64,000 nucleotides of DNA from Escherichia coli (GTDB taxonomy: Bacteria > Pseudomonadota > Gammaproteobacteria > Enterobacterales > Enterobacteriaceae), in NCBI RefSeq assembly GCF_003334405.1, contig NZ_QOWM01000003.1, one strand, 5' to 3'. Positions 1-7,842 of the stretch are shown here, piece after piece. Positions within the stretch are counted from its first letter, which is position 1. Every line of letters starts with the position of its first letter. The position numbers and the translations under genes were made by a program. The notes under the pieces were generated by a model. The model searched no databases, was not told the origin of the DNA, and saw only the letters and a list, made by a program, of their open reading frames with translations.

Positions 1-1315
1 GACCGTTCACCTTAATTGGGTGATCTGCCGTCTCGCCAGTTTCATTATCGCTATTGTGATGCTGATTGCCGCCAGTGTTCTCCTTGTGTGGATGTTCAGC
101 GCCTTCCATTTCCTCCGGATCATCTTCCTGAACTTCAACCTGATACTCTTCATCGAATGTTTCTTGGTATGTTGCGTCGCCCATCACCGCGCCACAATCA
201 GGGCAGTTGCCGCCGCCGGTCTGACCGCAGGCGGTGCAGACTTTTTCCACTTCCTGTTGCGCTACTGGTTCAGGCTGTTTCGTTTCTGGCTCGTTTTGTA
301 ACGCATTTGGACTGTTTTGTTCCGCTTTTTGGTAGTTCCGTTCCGATTCATGCTGGTTCTGGTTCACAGAATCGCGGGTCTGGAGCCCCTTAACCCATTT
401 CGGATCATTCGGGTCACTAATCCCTTCAACAAATTCACCACGTGATGCAGCAAGCAACTTATCGGCGTCAGGCTGGCTGATATTGGCTGCCTGCATAATT
501 TTGTTTACTTCGTCAGCGGTAACTTTTATCGGCTCTGGTTGTTCTGAATCTTCAGCGGTATCTACATTTTGCGGTAAGCCCGTGTATGTGCCATTTTTTC
601 GGGCAAAATATTCTTCTTTTGTGATTTCAGTGGCGCCAGCAGCCAGTGCCTTATCCAGACCAGAGAGTTTGTTTGCGCGACCGTATTTTTCTCCGTCCTT
701 ATCTGCGAAGAGGAAATAGAACGGCCCCTCACGCTCTACAGATGGTTCAGCTTCCGGCGCGGTTTCATTTTTTGGGATATCAGATACCTCAGTTTCCACT
801 GCATCAGTTTGTGTTTCTGATGACTGGAGAACATCAACAGTGCCCAGGTCTGTTTCTTCATTCTCAAACACGCCCTTTGTCGTCAGGTATTCGCAGATAT
901 ATTTGTTCAGTGCTACGGGATCTTTGTGAATGTCGATCGGACGCTCACGGACAAGGCCAAAAATAGTTTGGCGGTCGTAGCGAAGGGCATCAGGCTGTTT
1001 GCGCATTGATGCCGAGATACGCTTCCAGTCTTCGCGGTCGTTGTCGATAACTTCTTTTTTTGCCCAGCGATGGATGCTGCCGTCAATGTTTCCGGCATCC
1101 ACATCACTAGGCCAGAGAGCGTAGGCCAGTTCGTCATCCAGTGTTTTCCATGTCTGCTTGTATTCGCGATGAATGGCAGCAATGACCGGGCTGATTTTTC
1201 CTGTTGAATTTTCAGTGTACTGTTGATTGGCTCTGGCGCGGGCGAGATCAACAACAGACGTGTATTTTCCGGTTTCCTTGCGTTCACCTTCGCGACGTTT
1301 TTTCCAGATGCGCAT
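1..1315 (-). CDS. large acidic phage early-region protein, 3'-partial (runs off window start); identity unresolved
   Basis: Hand translation of the minus strand gives an uninterrupted frame from ATG at 1315-1313 to position 1 (over 430 codons). N-terminal part is basic, then a long Glu/Asp/Gln/Pro-rich low-complexity stretch and a CxxC-N7-CxxC zinc-ribbon motif (VCTACGQTGGGNCPDCG). Absent from the ORF track because there is no stop inside the window. Confidence 0.5.
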   Translation of the reverse strand, partial: MRIWKKRREGERKETGKYTSVVDLARARANQQYTENSTGKISPVIAAIHREYKQTWKTLDDELAYALWPSDVDAGNIDGSIHRWAKKEVIDNDREDWKRISASMRKQPDALRYDRQTIFGLVRERPIDIHKDPVALNKYICEYLTTKGVFENEETDLGTVDVLQSSETQTDAVETEVSDIPKNETAPEAEPSVEREGPFYFLFADKDGEKYGRANKLSGLDKALAAGATEITKEEYFARKNGTYTGLPQNVDTAEDSEQPEPIKVTADEVNKIMQAANISQPDADKLLAASRGEFVEGISDPNDPKWVKGLQTRDSVNQNQHESERNYQKAEQNSPNALQNEPETKQPEPVAQQEVEKVCTACGQTGGGNCPDCGAVMGDATYQETFDEEYQVEVQEDDPEEMEGAEHPHKENTGGNQHHNSDNETGETADHPIKVNG

Positions 1316-1373
1316 CTCTGCCTGAATTTCGGGCCATTTAGCACCAGGAATACATTTATGCTTAACCCACCCA

Positions 1374-1640
1374 ATGGCGTGCAACTTAAGCTCCGGATAC
1401 GGGTTATTCCCCTCTGAACAGGCGCGTAAGGACTGGCAAAACGCCCGCAAAAAACTCTCGAGGGCAAAGGTGAAGAAACCTGCTGTGGTTGATCCGGACC
1501 TTATCTGGTCATCACCTGACGGAGAAATACGTCGCTACGACAGTCGCCTAAACATAATCTGTCGCGAGTGCCGGAAGAGCGAAGTTATGCAGCGCATACT
1601 GGCTTTCTATCAGGGTAATTTTCAGGACGTGGCGCAGTGA
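1374..1640 (+). CDS. hypothetical phage protein (88 aa)
   Basis: ORF-track ORF; its stop overlaps the GTG start of the downstream methyltransferase-like ORF. No recognisable motif. Confidence 0.3.
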   Translation: MACNLSSGYGLFPSEQARKDWQNARKKLSRAKVKKPAVVDPDLIWSSPDGEIRRYDSRLNIICRECRKSEVMQRILAFYQGNFQDVAQ

Positions 1641-1993
1641 GTGCACCGGCAACCATTCTTGATATGTGCTGTGGCAGCCGCATGTTCTGGTTCGATAAGT
1701 CTGACGAACGGGCGATATTCAGCGATATCAGAAAAGAAGGATACACATTACGCAATGGGAGACGCTTGATTATCAGCCCTGACATTATCGCAGATTTTCG
1801 TGCATTATCATTTGCAGACGCATCTTTTTCGATGGTTGTATTAGACCCTCCGCATCTTGAGAGTGTTGGTGATAACGCCTGGATGGGAAAGAAATATGGA
1901 CGGCTGAATAAAGATGCCTGGCGTGATGATTCGCGACAGAGATTTAAAGAAGCCTTTCGGGTGTTGAGGCCGCACGGCGTTCTGATTTTTTAA
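1637..1993 (+). CDS. putative SAM-dependent methyltransferase, probably C-terminally truncated
   Basis: 118-aa ORF with DMCCGS (motif I-like) and VLDPPH (motif IV-like, DPPY class). Too short for a complete methyltransferase and followed by decayed sequence. Confidence 0.45.
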   Translation: MSAPATILDMCCGSRMFWFDKSDERAIFSDIRKEGYTLRNGRRLIISPDIIADFRALSFADASFSMVVLDPPHLESVGDNAWMGKKYGRLNKDAWRDDSRQRFKEAFRVLRPHGVLIF

Positions 1994-2255
1994 TGGAATG
2001 AAACGCAAATACCGGTAAGCCAGATTCTGGCACTGACAGACAGAAAACCTGTTATCTGTCAACGAACAGGGAAAAAACGATAAAACCCACTGGATTATTT
2101 TTATGAAAGAGGCATCCAGTGAGTAGATTCGTAAGGCTACAGATACGTATATCTGAATAATTAAATTCAGTTCTGTAAATAAAATTTAATCCTTAACCGG
2201 ATGGATTTCTGCACCCTCAGAACATCAGGAGGCCGCCCGAAAGGGCGGTAGTGAA

Positions 2256-2366
2256 ATGCGAAAGTTCAAAATTATTATTGAAACGGGAATAGCTGGTGGA
2301 GATTTTGAGGATGTATTCGAAGTGGACGATGACGCAACACCTGAGGAAATTCATGACGGAGCATAA
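2256..2366 (+). CDS. small acidic hypothetical protein (36 aa)
   Basis: ATG preceded by AGGAGG (2227-2232) and a GC hairpin with GAAA loop (2233-2248). Below the ORF-track length cut-off. Confidence 0.25.
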   Translation: MRKFKIIIETGIAGGDFEDVFEVDDDATPEEIHDGA

Positions 2367-2603
2367 GAAATTTTCTTTAACTACTGCAATTACTCATACC
2401 ACGAAATAAAAGACGATGAGGAAGAACAAAGTGGCTGATTTTTGTTCAGCTAAATATAACATCAGTTTTGAAGAGCGGGATGAACTATTAATGGACTATG
2501 GTGAGTTACGCGGTGGAAGTGCTGCTGATGTCGAATCCTAGCGTGATGACTATGAAGCGGGAAAAACTCCGGTCGAAGCATATTGTGATGAGTGGGGCGA
2601 TGA

Positions 2604-2891
2604 ATGAGCGAGATTAATTATCAGGAAGGGCATGAAACGGCGGGGCAAGCAAAACCAGTGGCATGGCGATATCGCTACGTGAAAAAAGGCGTTACGGACT
2701 TTCAGGGGAAGTAGTGGTCTGGTGACTGGAAATATGTACCGAAAAAAGAGGATTGTAACGACAGGCCGAACTATCAAATTCAGGCCTTATTCACTGCCTC
2801 ACCAGTCCCAGTTACATCAGAAGAACTGGTTAAAGCTGTGCACTTTTATGAACAACTAAAACGCGAAAATCCACCAACATCCGGCAACTAG
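2604..2891 (+). pseudogene. hypothetical protein ORF interrupted by an in-frame TAG at 2712-2714
   Basis: Same reading frame is protein-like on both sides of the TAG (MSEINYQEGHETAGQAKPVAWRYRYVKKGVTDFQGK / WSGDWKYVPKKEDCNDRPNYQIQALFTASPVPVTSEELVKAVHFYEQLKRENPPTSGN). Confidence 0.35.
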
Positions 2892-3145
2892 ATTAATGGA
2901 TTAACTATGTCGGTTAAACGACCAGCCAACTGAAAAAGCGGAAACCTGATTACAGGTTGCCAGATAAGGCAATGAGCTACCTGGCGCGGAACGGACTGAT
3001 AAGTATGGGGAATGTTTTACGATGAACCTTTAGACTAAAGAGTTTGTAACGCTATGTAAGTGATTTTTTCTGGTTTAGATATTTATATGTCCGGCCAAAT
3101 TGAGGTGTGTTTAAATGTAATTGCACATTGATTGTAGGAGGAATA

Positions 3146-3325
3146 ATGAAAAACGCATTGCAGTTTTTGTTTGTTGCGTTCTGGTTGTTCGCATCATGTA
3201 TGCCCATCATCTTCACAGCAAGGTATATGGAAAAAGTTGATGTTTTGATATTAATATTTGGATATATAAATGCCCTTTTTTTAGGGGTGTTCATGGCGGT
3301 CATGTGCATTGAATACTGGCGGTAA
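3146..3325 (+). CDS. small hydrophobic membrane protein (59 aa, two predicted TM helices)
   Basis: ATG at 3146 with consensus AGGAGG 5 nt upstream. Sequence MKNALQFLFVAFWLFASCMPIIFTARYMEKVDVLILIFGYINALFLGVFMAVMCIEYWR. Sits in an AT-rich stretch. Confidence 0.45.
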   Translation: MKNALQFLFVAFWLFASCMPIIFTARYMEKVDVLILIFGYINALFLGVFMAVMCIEYWR

Positions 3326-3559
3326 ATACAGCGAACTCCATTGGTTTAGTTGGATATTTACTGTGCTGGACAAAAACGGTTTGCGGGGAAATCTTAGTTA
3401 AGTAGAATGACTGCGGGTGCTTGAGGCTATCTGCCTCGGGCATGGACACCAACGGCAGATAGAGAAAAGCCCCAGTTAACATTACGCGTCCTGCAAGACG
3501 CTTAACATTAATCTGAGGCCAATTTCATGCTAGACACATGTAGGTTAGCCTCTTACGTG

Positions 3560-5200
3560 CCGAAAGGCACGGAGAAGCAGGCTATTGTTAACACCAAGCT
3601 GTAATGTCCCCTTTGAACCATTCTAAAATGTCCCCAGACAATTCTCTGGGGGATTTTTCATGATCAAAGAGACTGTTACGATGAGTCATAAGGAACTCCA
3701 CCGACTTCAGATTATTCAGGAACAAGCTGCGGCACGCATTGGCATTTCTATTCGGCAGGTTAAACGTCTGGTGCAACGGTATAGAAATGAAGGGCCTTCT
3801 GGTCTGGTTTCCCACCGACGTGGAAAGCGTCCTAATAATTCCTTTTCTACTGAATTCAGAGCAACAGTAATTTCACTCCTCAAAGGCCGTTACGCTGATT
3901 TTGGACCTACGTTTGCGTGCGAAAAATTGCGCGAGATACACGGTTTATCTTTATCCGTTGAAACTCTCAGAAAGTGGATGATAGAAGAGGGGTTATGGCG
4001 TGAACGCCGTCGTAAAATTGCCCGTATATATCAACGCCGCATGCGACGACCATCTTACGGTGAACTGATCCAGATTGATGGCTCACCTCATGACTGGTTT
4101 GAAAATCGAGGCCCCAGATGTACACTGATCGTTTTCATTGATGATGCCACCAGTGCGTTGATGGCGTTGCGTTTTGTGCCTGCTGAAACAACCCGGGCTT
4201 ACATGGAAACCCTCCGGGGTTACCTTAATGATCATGGCGTACCGCTCGCTCTCTACTCTGATAGACACAGTATATTCAGGGTAAATAACCCAGAGCGGGA
4301 AGGTGAGCTGACCCAGTTCACTCGTGCGATAAAGACACTGGGCATCGAGCCAATCCATGCCAACAGCCCGCAGGCAAAAGGGCGGGTAGAGCGCGCCAAT
4401 CAGACACTACAGGACAGGCTGGTCAAAGAAATGCGGCTTCAGAATATCAGTGATATTGAAACAGCAAATGCATGGTTGCCGACCTTTATTGAAGCCTATA
4501 ACAACCGGTTCGCTACGTCGCCTCGTACTACTGATAATGCTCATCTTGATGTGCACCATTCTGAAGAGGAACTGGGTTATATCTTCAGCCTACAGGCGAA
4601 GCGCGTTCTGTCTAAAAATCTCACTTTCCAGTACAAAAGCAGTGCGTTTCAGGTACGCAGTGAGGGCCGGGGATATCGACTTAGGCATTCGGTTGTTACT
4701 GTATGCGAGAACTTTGACGGTGAAATTAACGTTCTGTATGACGGGAAAGCGCTGGGCTGGGAAAAGTATGTTGATGGCCCGGAGCCTATACCACTGGATG
4801 ATGAAAAGAGTGTCCATGAACGAGTGGATAATGCCCGTATTGATTTACGCTCAAAATACTATGTTAAACCTAAAGCTGACCATCCCTGGCTTACGCGCCG
4901 AACGCAAAGTCATCAGCAAGTTAAGCCCCCGAAGTTACCTAAAAAGAAGCCTGATCCCGATAAAAAAGATTGAAACCAAGATCGATTCGGTTGAGTGCAT
5001 ATCCATTCATAGGGTAGATTCTTAAGTCGCGTTTCTGGTGTTCATTTTCGGGTGGTTTGTTACTTGTTTTACCGGGGATATGCCAGAAACGCGCTGAGTC
5101 AGTCTGGGCGGTGCGCGTAATGAGGCGTTATGGTAAATAGCCTATGCTAATGTCCGCTAAGAGCAAGAAGCGGAAGTTGGCAGTTTTGTGGACTGTCCCC
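3560..5200 (+). mobile_element. insertion sequence carrying the DDE transposase; ends not resolved
   Basis: Single transposase ORF flanked by non-coding sequence. I could not find clean terminal inverted repeats or a target-site duplication by eye, so boundaries are approximate. Confidence 0.45.
3660..4973 (+). CDS. DDE transposase with N-terminal HTH and rve/integrase-core domain (ISNCY/IS1202-like or IS481-like)
   Basis: 437 aa. N-terminal HTH (IGISIRQVKRLVQRY), then D (QIDGSPHDW), D (LYSDRHS) and E (RVERANQT) in integrase-core spacing. Basic C-terminal tail. Confidence 0.8.
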   Translation: MIKETVTMSHKELHRLQIIQEQAAARIGISIRQVKRLVQRYRNEGPSGLVSHRRGKRPNNSFSTEFRATVISLLKGRYADFGPTFACEKLREIHGLSLSVETLRKWMIEEGLWRERRRKIARIYQRRMRRPSYGELIQIDGSPHDWFENRGPRCTLIVFIDDATSALMALRFVPAETTRAYMETLRGYLNDHGVPLALYSDRHSIFRVNNPEREGELTQFTRAIKTLGIEPIHANSPQAKGRVERANQTLQDRLVKEMRLQNISDIETANAWLPTFIEAYNNRFATSPRTTDNAHLDVHHSEEELGYIFSLQAKRVLSKNLTFQYKSSAFQVRSEGRGYRLRHSVVTVCENFDGEINVLYDGKALGWEKYVDGPEPIPLDDEKSVHERVDNARIDLRSKYYVKPKADHPWLTRRTQSHQQVKPPKLPKKKPDPDKKD

Positions 5201-6514: not shown

Positions 6515-6801
6515 TGGCGTATTTTCTGGATTTTGACGAGCGGGCACTAAAGGAATGGCGAAAGCTGGGCTCGACGGTACGTGAACAGTTGAAAAAGAAG
6601 CTGGTTGAAGTACTTGAGTCACCCCGGATTGAAGCAAACAAGCTCCGTGGTATGCCTGATTGTTACAAGATTAAGCTCCGGTCTTCAGGCTATCGCCTTG
6701 TATACCAGGTTATAGACGAGAAAGTTGTCGTTTTCGTGATTTCTGTTGGGAAAAGAGAACGCTCGGAAGTATATAGCGAGGCGGTCAAACGCATTCTCTG
6801 A
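6514..6801 (+). CDS. relE: RelE mRNA interferase toxin
   Basis: 95 aa, recognised as RelE. Confidence 0.9.
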   Translation: MAYFLDFDERALKEWRKLGSTVREQLKKKLVEVLESPRIEANKLRGMPDCYKIKLRSSGYRLVYQVIDEKVVVFVISVGKRERSEVYSEAVKRIL

Positions 6802-6872
6802 ACCAAAGCATGACATCTCTGTTTCGCACCGAAGGTGACACTTCTGCTTTGCGTTGACAGGAGAAGCAGGCT

Positions 6873-7028
6873 ATGAAGCAGCAAAAGGCGATGTTAATCG
6901 CCCTGATCGTCATCTGTTTAACCGTCATAGTGACGGCACTGGTAACGAGGAAAGACCTCTGCGAGGTACGAATCCGAACCGGCCAGACGGAGGTCGCTGT
7001 CTTCACAGCTTACGAACCTGAGGAGTAA
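6873..7028 (+). CDS. hokD: Hok-family small membrane toxin
   Basis: 51 aa MKQQKAMLIALIVICLTVIVTALVTRKDLCEVRIRTGQTEVAVFTAYEPEE; below ORF-track cut-off, found by hand translation downstream of relE. Confidence 0.8.
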   Translation: MKQQKAMLIALIVICLTVIVTALVTRKDLCEVRIRTGQTEVAVFTAYEPEE

Positions 7029-7244
7029 GAGACCCGGCGGGGGAGAAATCCCTCGCCACCTCTGATGTGGCAGGCATCCTCAACGCACCCGCACTTAACC
7101 CGCTTCGGCGGGTTTTTGTTTTTATTTTCAACGCGTTTGAAGTTCTGGACGGTGCCGGAATAGAATCAAAAATACTTAAGTAGCGCGCAGGGATAAGAGG
7201 GATGGTCCCTTAAAGGGGAGAGCTAATTATCCGGAAGGATTCTG

Positions 7245-7496
7245 ATGATGAACATCGAAGAACTGCGTAAAATTTTTTGTGAAGATGGCCTCTATGCTGT
7301 GTGCGTTGAAAATGGAAATCTTGTTAGTCATTACCGCATTATGTGTTTGCGAAAGAATGGGGCTGCGTTAATTAATTTTGTGGATGCTCGGGTCACGGAC
7401 GGATTTATCTTGCGCGAAGGTGAGTTTGTCACTTCATTACAGGCATTGAAAGAGATCGGAATAAAAGCTGGCTTTTCTGCTTTTTCAGGAGAATAA
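7245..7496 (+). CDS. rem: Rem-like protein
   Basis: 83-aa ORF at the Qin rem position. Confidence 0.7.
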   Translation: MMNIEELRKIFCEDGLYAVCVENGNLVSHYRIMCLRKNGAALINFVDARVTDGFILREGEFVTSLQALKEIGIKAGFSAFSGE

Positions 7497-7562
7497 ACTC
7501 ATCTACAATCTTGCGCGGGGCTGAACTCCCGCTGAGTAACACCGTGCCACCGGAGAAAACCG

Positions 7563-7841
7563 ATGGCACGCAACGCAAAATATTACAATTCTGATAATTC
7601 GCCCGTTCTTGCCTGCACGCACGGGCGGTATTCTCACGCATTCAAGTCTGAATGGTTCCAGCACCCTCCATGCACTGCAGAACAGGCCGAATGGCTGATT
7701 CATTCTTACCGCAGGCGCGGGTTCGAGGTTAAGAAAGCTCTCAGTCTCGACTATCGGCACTGGATAATCTCTGTCAGGCTGCCTTATTCCGAACGCCCAC
7801 CACGTGCGTCCCGCACTTTCCAGCAACGGATCTGGAGGTAA
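7563..7841 (+). CDS. hypothetical protein (92 aa) upstream of ydfU
   Basis: ATG with GGAGAA RBS; ends 1 nt before the likely GTG start of ydfU. Confidence 0.5.
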   Translation: MARNAKYYNSDNSPVLACTHGRYSHAFKSEWFQHPPCTAEQAEWLIHSYRRRGFEVKKALSLDYRHWIISVRLPYSERPPRASRTFQQRIWR

Positions 7842-7842
7842 C

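What the first reader, a model, noticed from the sequence alone, without database searches (positions are those of the whole stretch)
1..1315. Long minus-strand ORF running off the window start, missing from the ORF track
Hand translation gives over 430 sense codons on the minus strand from ATG 1315 to position 1. The listed ORFs over the same DNA (913..1467 minus, 483..719 and 646..966 plus) are short, low-complexity and in conflicting frames. The product has a basic N-terminus, a long acidic Pro/Glu/Gln-rich disordered middle and a CxxC-N7-CxxC zinc ribbon. A stretch (KLLAASRGEFVEGISDPNDPKWVKG) reminded me of the dispensable N-terminal region of RecE (exonuclease VIII), but I cannot confirm this.
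Basis: partly seen in the sequence, partly recalled or inferred. Interest (0 to 1): 0.4.

Follow-up and report, generated by a model that had tools for sequence, protein, structure and literature searches.

The report
Truncated prophage exonuclease pseudogene remnant
The long open frame is real, but it is a promoter-less fragment of a known 823-residue phage exonuclease gene, left behind by a 4.6-kb deletion in a decayed Qin-type prophage of E. coli, so it is an ordinary gene relic.

Summary
Window 1315→1 (minus strand) is 438 stop-free codons. The ORF track omits it only because ORFs that run off the window are not listed.

It is not a complete gene. The DNA is 100% identical to codons 164-629 of an intact 823-aa "exonuclease" gene of lambdoid phages (PhiR42_1; also Tritos, HannyBb, mEp460; phrog_2082).

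A 4,610-bp deletion with its junction at window 1391-1400 (GTATCCGGAG) removed:
- the 5' end of lygF/DUF977;
- the replication and immunity genes, dicF, dicB and ydfD;
- both early promoters;
- the first 163 codons of the exonuclease.

ATG 1315 is internal Met192. NCBI's annotation pipeline (PGAP) already marks the locus as a pseudogene, and K-12 ydfE is the complementary N-terminal fragment of the same gene.

The RecE hunch is half right. Window 464-22 is homologous to RecE residues 455-589, including the quoted peptide (24/25 identical) and the zinc ribbon. In genomes identical across the junction, however, the catalytic domain just outside the window is a DEDDh 3'-5' exonuclease (Rv2179c/DexA-like). 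It is not RecE's PD-(D/E)XK nuclease, and xis-int follow rather than recT.

Already known; low interest.

The parts
1..1400 (-). Remnant of the lambdoid-phage 823-aa exonuclease gene, codons 164-629. The last ~194 codons (the DEDDh domain) lie beyond the window start.
   Evidence: Window 1400-1 equals L004 7009-8408 (phage PhiR42_1 gene at 6521-8992) at 100% nucleotide identity. PGAP calls it a pseudogene 'missing N-terminus' in identical genomes. The remnant covers phrog_2082 profile positions 161-822 of 823.
1391..1400 (.). Deletion junction: the 10-bp microhomology GTATCCGGAG where lygF/DUF977 DNA is fused to exonuclease codon 163/164.
   Evidence: Window 3600-1391 equals L004 189-2398, and window 1400-1 equals L004 7009-8408. 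The two matches overlap by 10 bp, and 4,610 bp of the intact phage are absent. The lygF-side copy in PhiR42_1 is GTAGCCGGAG, matching 9 of 10.
1313..1315 (-). It is internal Met192 of the full-length protein, with a weak AGG 5 nt upstream.
   Evidence: K-12 YdfE and PhiR42_1 read ...WPEIQAEMRIWKKRREG... continuously through this Met. In the AlphaFold model Met192 lies inside helix 185-205.
854..1171 (-). Confidently folded helical module (full-length residues ~240-345). It is the module most widely shared with RecE-type proteins (RecE ~278-340).
   Evidence: pLDDT is above 90 for residues 240-345. The module is shared with 30 of the 48 long homologues, of both nuclease types. It aligns to RecE 278-340. 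PHROG hits are 2489, 6528 and 607.
584..736 (-). Small beta-hairpin and helix domain (full-length residues ~385-435), flanked by acidic disordered linkers.
   Evidence: AlphaFold2 model: strands 390-396 and 399-405, helices 408-431, pLDDT above 90. Segments 347-384 and 439-455 are below 50.
22..464 (-). RecE-like module: 78% nucleotide identity to K-12 recE codons 455-589. It contains the KLLAASRGEFVEGISDPNDPKWVKG peptide (460->386) and the CxxC-N7-CxxC motif (238->194).
   Evidence: BLASTN, BLASTP, motif positions.
1389..1640 (+). 5'-truncated lygF/DUF977 pseudogene, the other side of the deletion. It runs divergently from the exonuclease remnant.
   Evidence: PGAP annotates 'DUF977 family protein, missing N-terminus' in identical genomes. 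The intact 423-bp LygF gene is in PhiR42_1 at L004 2149-2571. The ORF 1374..1640 appears.
1637..1993 (+). Intact class I SAM-dependent methyltransferase gene (context). It has lost its upstream pR operon promoter in the same deletion.
   Evidence: ORF of 118 aa. Annotated as WP_001310834.1 in the identical genome. The gene order methyltransferase-LygF-O-cII-cro is seen in PhiR42_1.

Best explanation
The ORF is the surviving 3' two-thirds of a lambdoid-prophage early-left-operon gene, inside a Qin-type cryptic prophage of E. coli. The intact gene encodes an 823-aa modular exonuclease. It has an N-terminal folded domain (~1-210), a helical module (~240-345), a small domain (~385-435), a RecE-like acidic linker with a Cys4 motif (~470-630), and a C-terminal DEDDh 3'-5' exonuclease domain (642-813; D646, E648, D746, H796, D801).

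Shown: a single 4,610-bp deletion between short (9-10 bp) direct repeats fused the interior of lygF/DUF977 to codon 163/164 of this gene. It removed the replication gene O, cII, cro/dicC, cI/dicA, ydfA-C, dicF, dicB and ydfD.

Inferred: the pL- and pR-type early promoters went with that region. What remains is a divergently abutting pair of 5'-truncated genes with no promoter region between them. The remnant is therefore most likely a silent, recently formed pseudogene. Its frame is still open only because too little time has passed for it to decay. The ancestral protein most likely acted as a 3'-5' exonuclease tethered to the same non-catalytic scaffold that RecE uses.
For: - Identity and truncation. 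The window is 100% identical in nucleotides to codons 164-629 of the intact PhiR42_1 gene. The flanking DNA is 99.9% identical to that phage's methyltransferase-lygF side. The two matches overlap by 10 bp, and 4,610 bp are missing.
- Gene order. In intact phages the order is methyltransferase-LygF-O-cII-cro | cI-ydfABC-(dicF)-dicB-ydfD-exonuclease-xis-int.
- Annotation. PGAP marks both flanking fragments as pseudogenes missing their N-termini. The locus lies beside rspB, which is the Qin attachment site.
- K-12. The ydfE pseudogene is the N-terminal 254 residues of the same protein, cut by IS2E.
- Real coding frame in phages. dN/dS is 0.27 against Tritos and 0.35 against mEp460.
- Catalytic domain. 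Pfam Rv2179c-like, E=3.6e-67. The closest solved relative by sequence is T4 DexA, 8KEL, E=4e-7 (PMC12153337).
- Population. The junction allele is in 90 of 5,426 complete E. coli genomes. Among the carriers listed, most are 100% identical. Several carry IS600, ISKpn26, IS3, IS30 or IS1203 insertions, and two carry a 1-bp length change, as expected for unconstrained DNA.
- Independent deletion. An independent, smaller deletion at the same locus leaves the 823-aa gene intact in strain PSJ-16.
- Promoters. Promoter-like sites in window 1-2600 are no more frequent than in shuffles: 4 found against 3.3 +/- 1.8 expected.
- Structure. The breakpoint at residue 163 and Met192 both fall inside the confidently folded N-terminal domain.
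Against: - The frame is fully open, and it retains an ATG (1315) with a weak Shine-Dalgarno-like AGG 5 nt upstream.
- Some gene callers predict a 632-635-aa protein from that ATG (P0001, P0030, P0038).
- In identical genomes the DEDDh domain and all five catalytic residues are intact, so a read-through transcript could yield an active enzyme.
- No expression data were available.
- The 583 bases beyond the window start were inferred from identical genomes, not read from the source genome.
Confidence: 0.9

Rival explanations
1. The remnant is a functioning, domesticated gene. A 632-aa protein is translated from ATG 1315, or a longer one from TTG 1384 or 1450. It keeps the DEDDh domain and serves the host, for instance as a DexA/EcD-like (HREX) nuclease against phages with modified DNA.
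For: - The frame is open, with ATG plus a weak SD-like sequence.
- The DEDDh motifs are intact in identical genomes.
- An E. coli DexA homologue (EcD) cleaves 5hmC DNA and protects against T4 (PMC12153337).
- The allele is present unchanged in dozens of genomes.
Against: - There is no promoter region: the 5' end abuts a divergent truncated gene, and promoter-like sites are at background level.
- The truncation cuts through a folded domain.
- The sequence is 100% identical to an intact phage gene, so openness needs no selection.
- IS insertions and 1-bp length changes occur in carriers.
- EcD is a different, stand-alone protein. From its cloning primers it starts MIDTET and ends TIPETYD.
- PADLOC gives only a weak generic DEDDh hit.
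Confidence: 0.07
2. It is the N-terminal part of a true RecE (exonuclease VIII) gene, with a PD-(D/E)XK nuclease domain and recT lying just beyond the window start.
For: - Strong local similarity to RecE 278-592.
- The NCBIfam exodeoxyribonuclease VIII model hits over positions 271-600.
- Many phage records label the homologues 'exodeoxyribonuclease VIII'.
- Most distant homologues of the non-catalytic region do carry Exonuc_VIII or PDDEXK domains.
Against: - The listed junction carriers, most of them 100% identical over 2,151 bp, continue into a DEDDh domain annotated as a 3'-5' exonuclease. In the one carrier whose neighbours were read (strain 300709), xis and int follow.
- The NCBIfam score of 283 is far below the cut-off of 1269.
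- No RecE-type domain is found by Pfam.
Confidence: 0.01
3. The short ORFs listed over the same DNA (913..1467 minus; 483..719 and 646..966 plus) are the real genes, and the long frame is incidental.
For: They are what the mechanical ORF list shows. Some stay open in close homologues.
Against: - The long frame has thousands of protein homologues (4,815 scored hits) and shows purifying selection.
- 646..966+ and 483..719+ acquire 3-5 stops in mEp460 or PPompW.
- 913..1467 starts on the far side of the deletion junction, so it is a chimera that cannot predate the deletion.
Confidence: 0.01

Closest known systems
The 823-aa 'exonuclease' of Qin-type lambdoid phages and prophages (PhiR42_1 XSB42569.1, Tritos TRITO_27, HannyBb, mEp460; E. 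coli WP_000048342.1; phrog_2082)
   Same: The window DNA is 100% identical to codons 164-629 of the PhiR42_1 gene. The genomic position is the same, immediately upstream of xis-int. The remnant covers profile positions 161-822 of 823.
   Different: The window copy lacks codons 1-163 and its operon promoter, so it is a pseudogene fragment.
ydfE (b1577), Qin prophage pseudogene of E. coli K-12
   Same: It is the same gene at the same locus. K-12 retains residues 1-254, and window 1400-1122 is 100% identical to K-12.
   Different: The lesions are complementary. K-12 lost the 3' part to IS2E and kept the immunity region. The window allele lost the 5' part and the immunity region.
RecE / exonuclease VIII of the Rac prophage (b1350)
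   Same: The non-catalytic scaffold is homologous. RecE 278-592 aligns to full-length residues 264-629 at 39% identity, and is nearly identical over RecE 455-589, including the Cys4 motif. Both sit in the early-left operon near xis-int. The RecE N-terminal region has no assigned function (PMC11611040).
   Different: The catalytic domain is DEDDh 3'-5' rather than PD-(D/E)XK 5'-3'. There is no recT partner. The N-terminal ~260 residues are unrelated at the BLAST level.
T4 DexA and E. coli EcD (HREX); Pfam PF16473 Rv2179c-like 3'-5' exonucleases
   Same: The C-terminal domain, just outside the window, belongs to this DEDDh family. The Pfam match is E=3.6e-67, DexA (8KEL) is the nearest solved sequence relative, and Orn is the best fold match.
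   Different: DexA and EcD are small stand-alone enzymes. Here the domain is the C-terminus of an 823-aa multidomain protein. EcD is a different sequence. No substrate data exist for this protein.

Membership tests
RecE / exodeoxyribonuclease VIII (NCBIfam NF007259 equivalog) | Whole-protein score at or above the curated cut-off (1269 bits) | tested here: not met
   283 bits, matching only profile positions 271-600 of 877.
RecE / exodeoxyribonuclease VIII | C-terminal PD-(D/E)XK 5'-3' nuclease domain (RecE 564/606-866; Pfam Exonuc_VIII) | tested here: not met
   Pfam finds only Rv2179c-like and RNase_T in the remnant and in the full-length protein. RecE similarity ends at RecE residue 592. The domain lies outside the window and was read from identical genomes.
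RecE / exodeoxyribonuclease VIII | Adjacent single-strand annealing partner (recT) downstream | tested here: not met
   Excisionase and integrase follow directly in an identical genome and in intact phages.
RecE / exodeoxyribonuclease VIII | Shared non-catalytic central region (RecE ~278-592) with the Cys4 motif | tested here: met
   BLASTP E=2e-62, 78% nucleotide identity over recE codons 455-589, and CxxC-N7-CxxC conserved.
Qin-type lambdoid 823-aa exonuclease (phrog_2082) | End-to-end match to the 823-position family profile | tested here: not met
   The remnant matches profile positions 161-822 only (E=0, 1400 bits). The first 160 positions are deleted. It is a truncated member, that is, a pseudogene.
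Qin-type lambdoid 823-aa exonuclease (phrog_2082) | Position in the early-left operon between ydfD/dicB and xis-int | tested here: inconclusive
   The downstream side (xis-int-rspB) is kept in identical genomes. The upstream side (ydfD, dicB, promoter) is deleted. The downstream side is outside the window.
DEDDh 3'-5' exonucleases, Rv2179c/DexA-like (Pfam PF16473) | Domain match and the D-E-D-D-H catalytic residues | tested here: met
   E=3.6e-67 over model positions 2-177 of 177. D646, E648, D746, H796 and D801 are present. This was shown on the identical locus L001 and on L004, not on window DNA, which stops about 13 codons before the domain.
DEDDh 3'-5' exonucleases, Rv2179c/DexA-like | 3'-5' exonuclease activity and substrate (DNA, RNA or 5hmC-DNA) | not testable with these tools
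   This needs biochemistry. DexA and EcD data exist only for other family members (PMC12153337).
HREX antiphage system (EcD) | Orthology to EcD (HAK9828821.1) | tested here: not met
   The EcD cloning primers encode MIDTET... and ...TIPETYD. This protein has MIDLETMG... and ...KLIPSQADS. PADLOC gives only a weak generic DEDDh hit.

The most novel reading that the evidence does not exclude
The 5'-truncated remnant might still be expressed from ATG 1315 as a 632-aa protein. Its intact DexA-like 3'-5' exonuclease domain might then give the host a selectable benefit, such as degrading modified phage DNA.

More broadly, the RecE-type non-catalytic scaffold is a swappable adaptor found joined to nucleases of opposite polarity: PD-(D/E)XK in at least 21 and DEDDh in 7 of 46 diverse homologues. 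This hints that the long-unexplained RecE N-terminal region has a function independent of 5'-3' resection.
Probability: 0.06. Interest if true: 0.45.

Novelty: already known. Interest (0 to 1): 0.1.

Why it matters
It matters little for discovery. The locus is already annotated as a pseudogene in RefSeq genomes, and the intact gene is common in E. coli lambdoid prophages.

- **ORF tracks.** ORF lists that drop end-running ORFs hide real coding sequence. An open frame with an ATG can still be a gene fragment.
- **Annotation.** Many phage records call this DEDDh protein 'exodeoxyribonuclease VIII' because it shares RecE's non-catalytic region. That label is misleading.
- **Domain shuffling.** The same scaffold is joined to nucleases of opposite polarity. 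This may be a useful lead for anyone studying the unexplained N-terminal region of RecE.

Tried and rejected
- **PDB sequence search.** The in-window 438 aa gave only chance-level hits (SycT, E~0.7).
- **Fold search.** Foldseek of the AlphaFold2 model against the PDB found nothing significant for the non-catalytic domains. The only plausible match was oligoribonuclease for the DEDDh domain (E=0.14, probability 0.98). The folds of residues 1-210 and 240-345 therefore stay unassigned. Model quality is uneven (mean pLDDT 68.7, pTM 0.31).
- **Defence-system library.** PADLOC gave only a weak DEDDh hit.
- **Promoter and terminator scan.** Promoter-like sites were at shuffle background: 4 found against 3.3 +/- 1.8 expected. 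Terminator-like sites were 6 against 2.9 +/- 1.8 expected, none of them well placed.
- **Rfam.** There are no RNA families within 1-3400, and DicF is absent, as the deletion predicts.
- **Literature.** 'Rv2179c' with 'prophage' returned nothing. 'ydfE' papers only list it among genes. A RecE/DnaQ-like search returned nothing relevant.
- **EcD.** I considered that EcD, the E. coli DexA homologue of the HREX paper, might be this protein. Its primer-encoded termini differ, so I rejected that.
- **Same-strand +1 ORF as a refutation test.** Checking whether 913..1398 loses its frame in homologues was uninformative, because it stays open in all three. My first attempt used the wrong frame.
- **Newer Pfam families.** PF27430 and PF27432 are listed for homologues, but their names could not be retrieved.

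Full report
**1. Observation**

The minus strand from 1315 to 1 translates to 438 codons with no stop. The frame is open back to a stop at 1537-1535. With the window's composition, such a run has a probability of about 8e-11 per start, or about 1e-5 expected in the window. It is absent from the ORF list because that tool omits ORFs running off the source. The quoted peptide, the CxxC-N7-CxxC motif, the basic first 30 residues and the acidic P/E/Q-rich remainder are all there.

**2. Where it lies**

Window 1-1700 is 100% identical to many E. coli chromosomes. In strain 300709 the locus lies beside rspB/ynfA, the attachment region of the Qin cryptic prophage. There PGAP annotates the following:
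- a pseudogene, '3'-5' exoribonuclease domain-containing protein, missing N-terminus' (equivalent to window 1408 to 583 bases beyond the window start);
- next to it, running divergently, a pseudogene 'DUF977 family protein, missing N-terminus', followed by an intact SAM-dependent methyltransferase;
- downstream of the exonuclease fragment, an excisionase and an integrase, not recT.

**3. What the intact gene looks like**

A tblastn search of phage genomes finds full-length copies in Escherichia phages PhiR42_1, HannyBb, Tritos and mEp460. The gene is 2,472 bp (823 aa). It sits in the order cI - ydfA/B/C - (dicF) - dicB - ydfD - exonuclease - xis - int. On the other arm the order is cro - cII - O - LygF (DUF977) - methyltransferase. 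No annealing-protein gene is annotated in that operon.

**4. The lesion**

BLASTN shows that window 3600-1391 equals PhiR42_1 locus L004 189-2398 (99.9%), and that window 1400-1 equals L004 7009-8408 (100%). The two matches overlap by 10 bp (GTATCCGGAG; the lygF-side copy in PhiR42_1 is GTAGCCGGAG), and 4,610 bp are missing.

The deletion removed:
- the first ~58 codons of lygF;
- the whole replication and immunity region, with dicF, dicB and ydfD;
- codons 1-163 of the exonuclease.

Rfam finds no DicF in the window, which agrees. ATG 1315 is therefore internal Met192. In K-12 the ydfE pseudogene is the complementary piece, residues 1-254, ended by IS2E. Strain PSJ-16 has an independent, smaller deletion that joins lygF' to the region upstream of dicB and leaves the 823-aa gene intact.

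**5. Is the frame the real one, and is it maintained?**

Against intact phage alleles, the 466 in-window codons give dN/dS 0.27 (Tritos) and 0.35 (mEp460). They show zero differences from PhiR42_1. The frame is thus a true coding frame in phages, and the deletion is too recent for any decay.

The junction itself is present in 90 of 5,426 complete E. coli genomes. Among the carriers listed:
- most are identical over 2,151 bp;
- several carry IS600, ISKpn26, IS3, IS30 or IS1203 insertions;
- two differ by one base in length.

This pattern fits unconstrained DNA.

The plus-strand ORFs gain stops in diverged homologues. The 913..1467 ORF starts across the deletion junction, so it is a chimera. Promoter-like sites upstream are at background level. 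The native promoters lay in the deleted region; this is inferred from the gene order.

**6. Domain content**

Pfam finds one domain, Rv2179c-like 3'-5' exonuclease, at residues 642-813 of the full-length protein (E about 5e-67). The DEDDh residues are D646, E648, D746, H796 and D801. This domain begins about 13 codons beyond the window start.

Its nearest solved sequence relative is 8KEL/8KEN (E=4e-7), which is T4 DexA (PMC12153337). That paper also describes EcD, an E. coli DexA homologue that cleaves 5hmC DNA and protects against T4. EcD's cloning primers encode different termini, so it is not this protein.

An AlphaFold2 model built on 46 homologues (mean pLDDT 68.7) gives:
- confident domains at 1-210, 240-345 and 385-435;
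- disorder over 347-384, 439-455 and 496-653, which includes the Cys4 motif.

The breakpoint (residue 163) and Met192 fall inside the first domain. Foldseek against the PDB gives no significant match for the non-catalytic domains.

**7. Relation to RecE**

BLASTP against K-12 RecE aligns remnant 102-467 with RecE 278-592 (39% identity, E=2e-62). The two are nearly identical over RecE 455-589, and similarity ends at the linker before the RecE nuclease domain. Nucleotide identity there is 78%. The NCBIfam exodeoxyribonuclease VIII model scores 283 bits against a cut-off of 1269.

A search of 1.84 billion representative proteins with the non-catalytic residues 1-635 found 247 relatives. Among 46 long ones:
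- 21 carry Pfam Exonuc_VIII;
- 13 carry DUF3799 (PDDEXK-like);
- 7 carry Rv2179c-like;
- 1 carries RecT.

Module mapping shows that both N-terminal types (Qin-type and RecE-type) occur with both nuclease types. According to a 2023 review, RecE's N-terminal region is of unknown function, and it enhances linear-linear recombination (PMC11611040).

**8. Verdict**

The finding is a real open frame that is a 5'-truncated, promoter-less pseudogene of a known prophage exonuclease. It is already flagged as such in RefSeq. Novelty: already known. Interest: low.

The residual uncertainty has two parts. Low-level expression from ATG 1315 cannot be excluded without expression data. The sequence beyond window position 1 was read from identical genomes, not from the source genome.

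Noticed in passing
window ~16283-19241 and onward to ~64000: The Qin-type prophage ends with tfaQ-pinQ-ydfK-ynfT. The window then continues into uspF, ompN (MicC at 21591-21711), nifJ/ydbK, ldhA, ydbH, feaRB, tynA and the paa operon. In K-12 these flank the right end of the Rac prophage, not Qin, where ydfJ/ydfI would be expected. This suggests recombination between the inverted tfa-pin-cold-shock modules of Rac and Qin, that is, an inversion of the ~200-kb terminus segment.
   Followed up: partly
window 3415-3586 (+), next to the ISNCY-family transposase ORF 3660-4973 (+): Rfam finds a sok antitoxin RNA (104 bits against a gathering score of 59). In the identical genome this stretch has no annotated hok/sok gene. 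A hok-type toxin ORF was not looked for.
   Followed up: no
phage records H16, H18, H19, H33-H36: Phage genome records label this DEDDh-domain protein 'exodeoxyribonuclease VIII' or 'exonuclease VIII, ds DNA exonuclease', apparently because of the shared RecE-like middle region. The catalytic domain is of a different class and opposite polarity.
   Followed up: yes
same locus in other E. coli: L003 7079-7999 (K-12), L010 2422-5747 (PSJ-16), hits H79 and H120-H130: The Qin early region has been damaged repeatedly and independently. There is IS2E in K-12 ydfE, a smaller lygF'-dicB deletion in PSJ-16, and IS600, ISKpn26, IS3, IS30 or IS1203 insertions in carriers of the window's deletion allele.
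   Followed up: partly
protein P0201 (703 aa): This representative protein has a RecE-type N-terminal region (1-277) and the RecE-like linker fused directly to a RecT domain (516-703), with no nuclease domain. It may be an in-frame recE-recT deletion fusion.
   Followed up: no
full-length protein residues 1-210 and 240-345 (window 1171-854 for the second): Two confidently predicted domains (pLDDT above 90) of the RecE-type scaffold have no significant Foldseek match in the PDB. Two homologues give weak, sub-threshold Pfam Rad52_Rad22 hits (E~0.05), which were not pursued.
   Followed up: partly
window 10432-10824, 13334-13719 and 17227-17425: Ordinary Qin features: two cspA-type thermoregulator leaders (the cspB/cspI region) and the IS009 RNA.
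   Followed up: no
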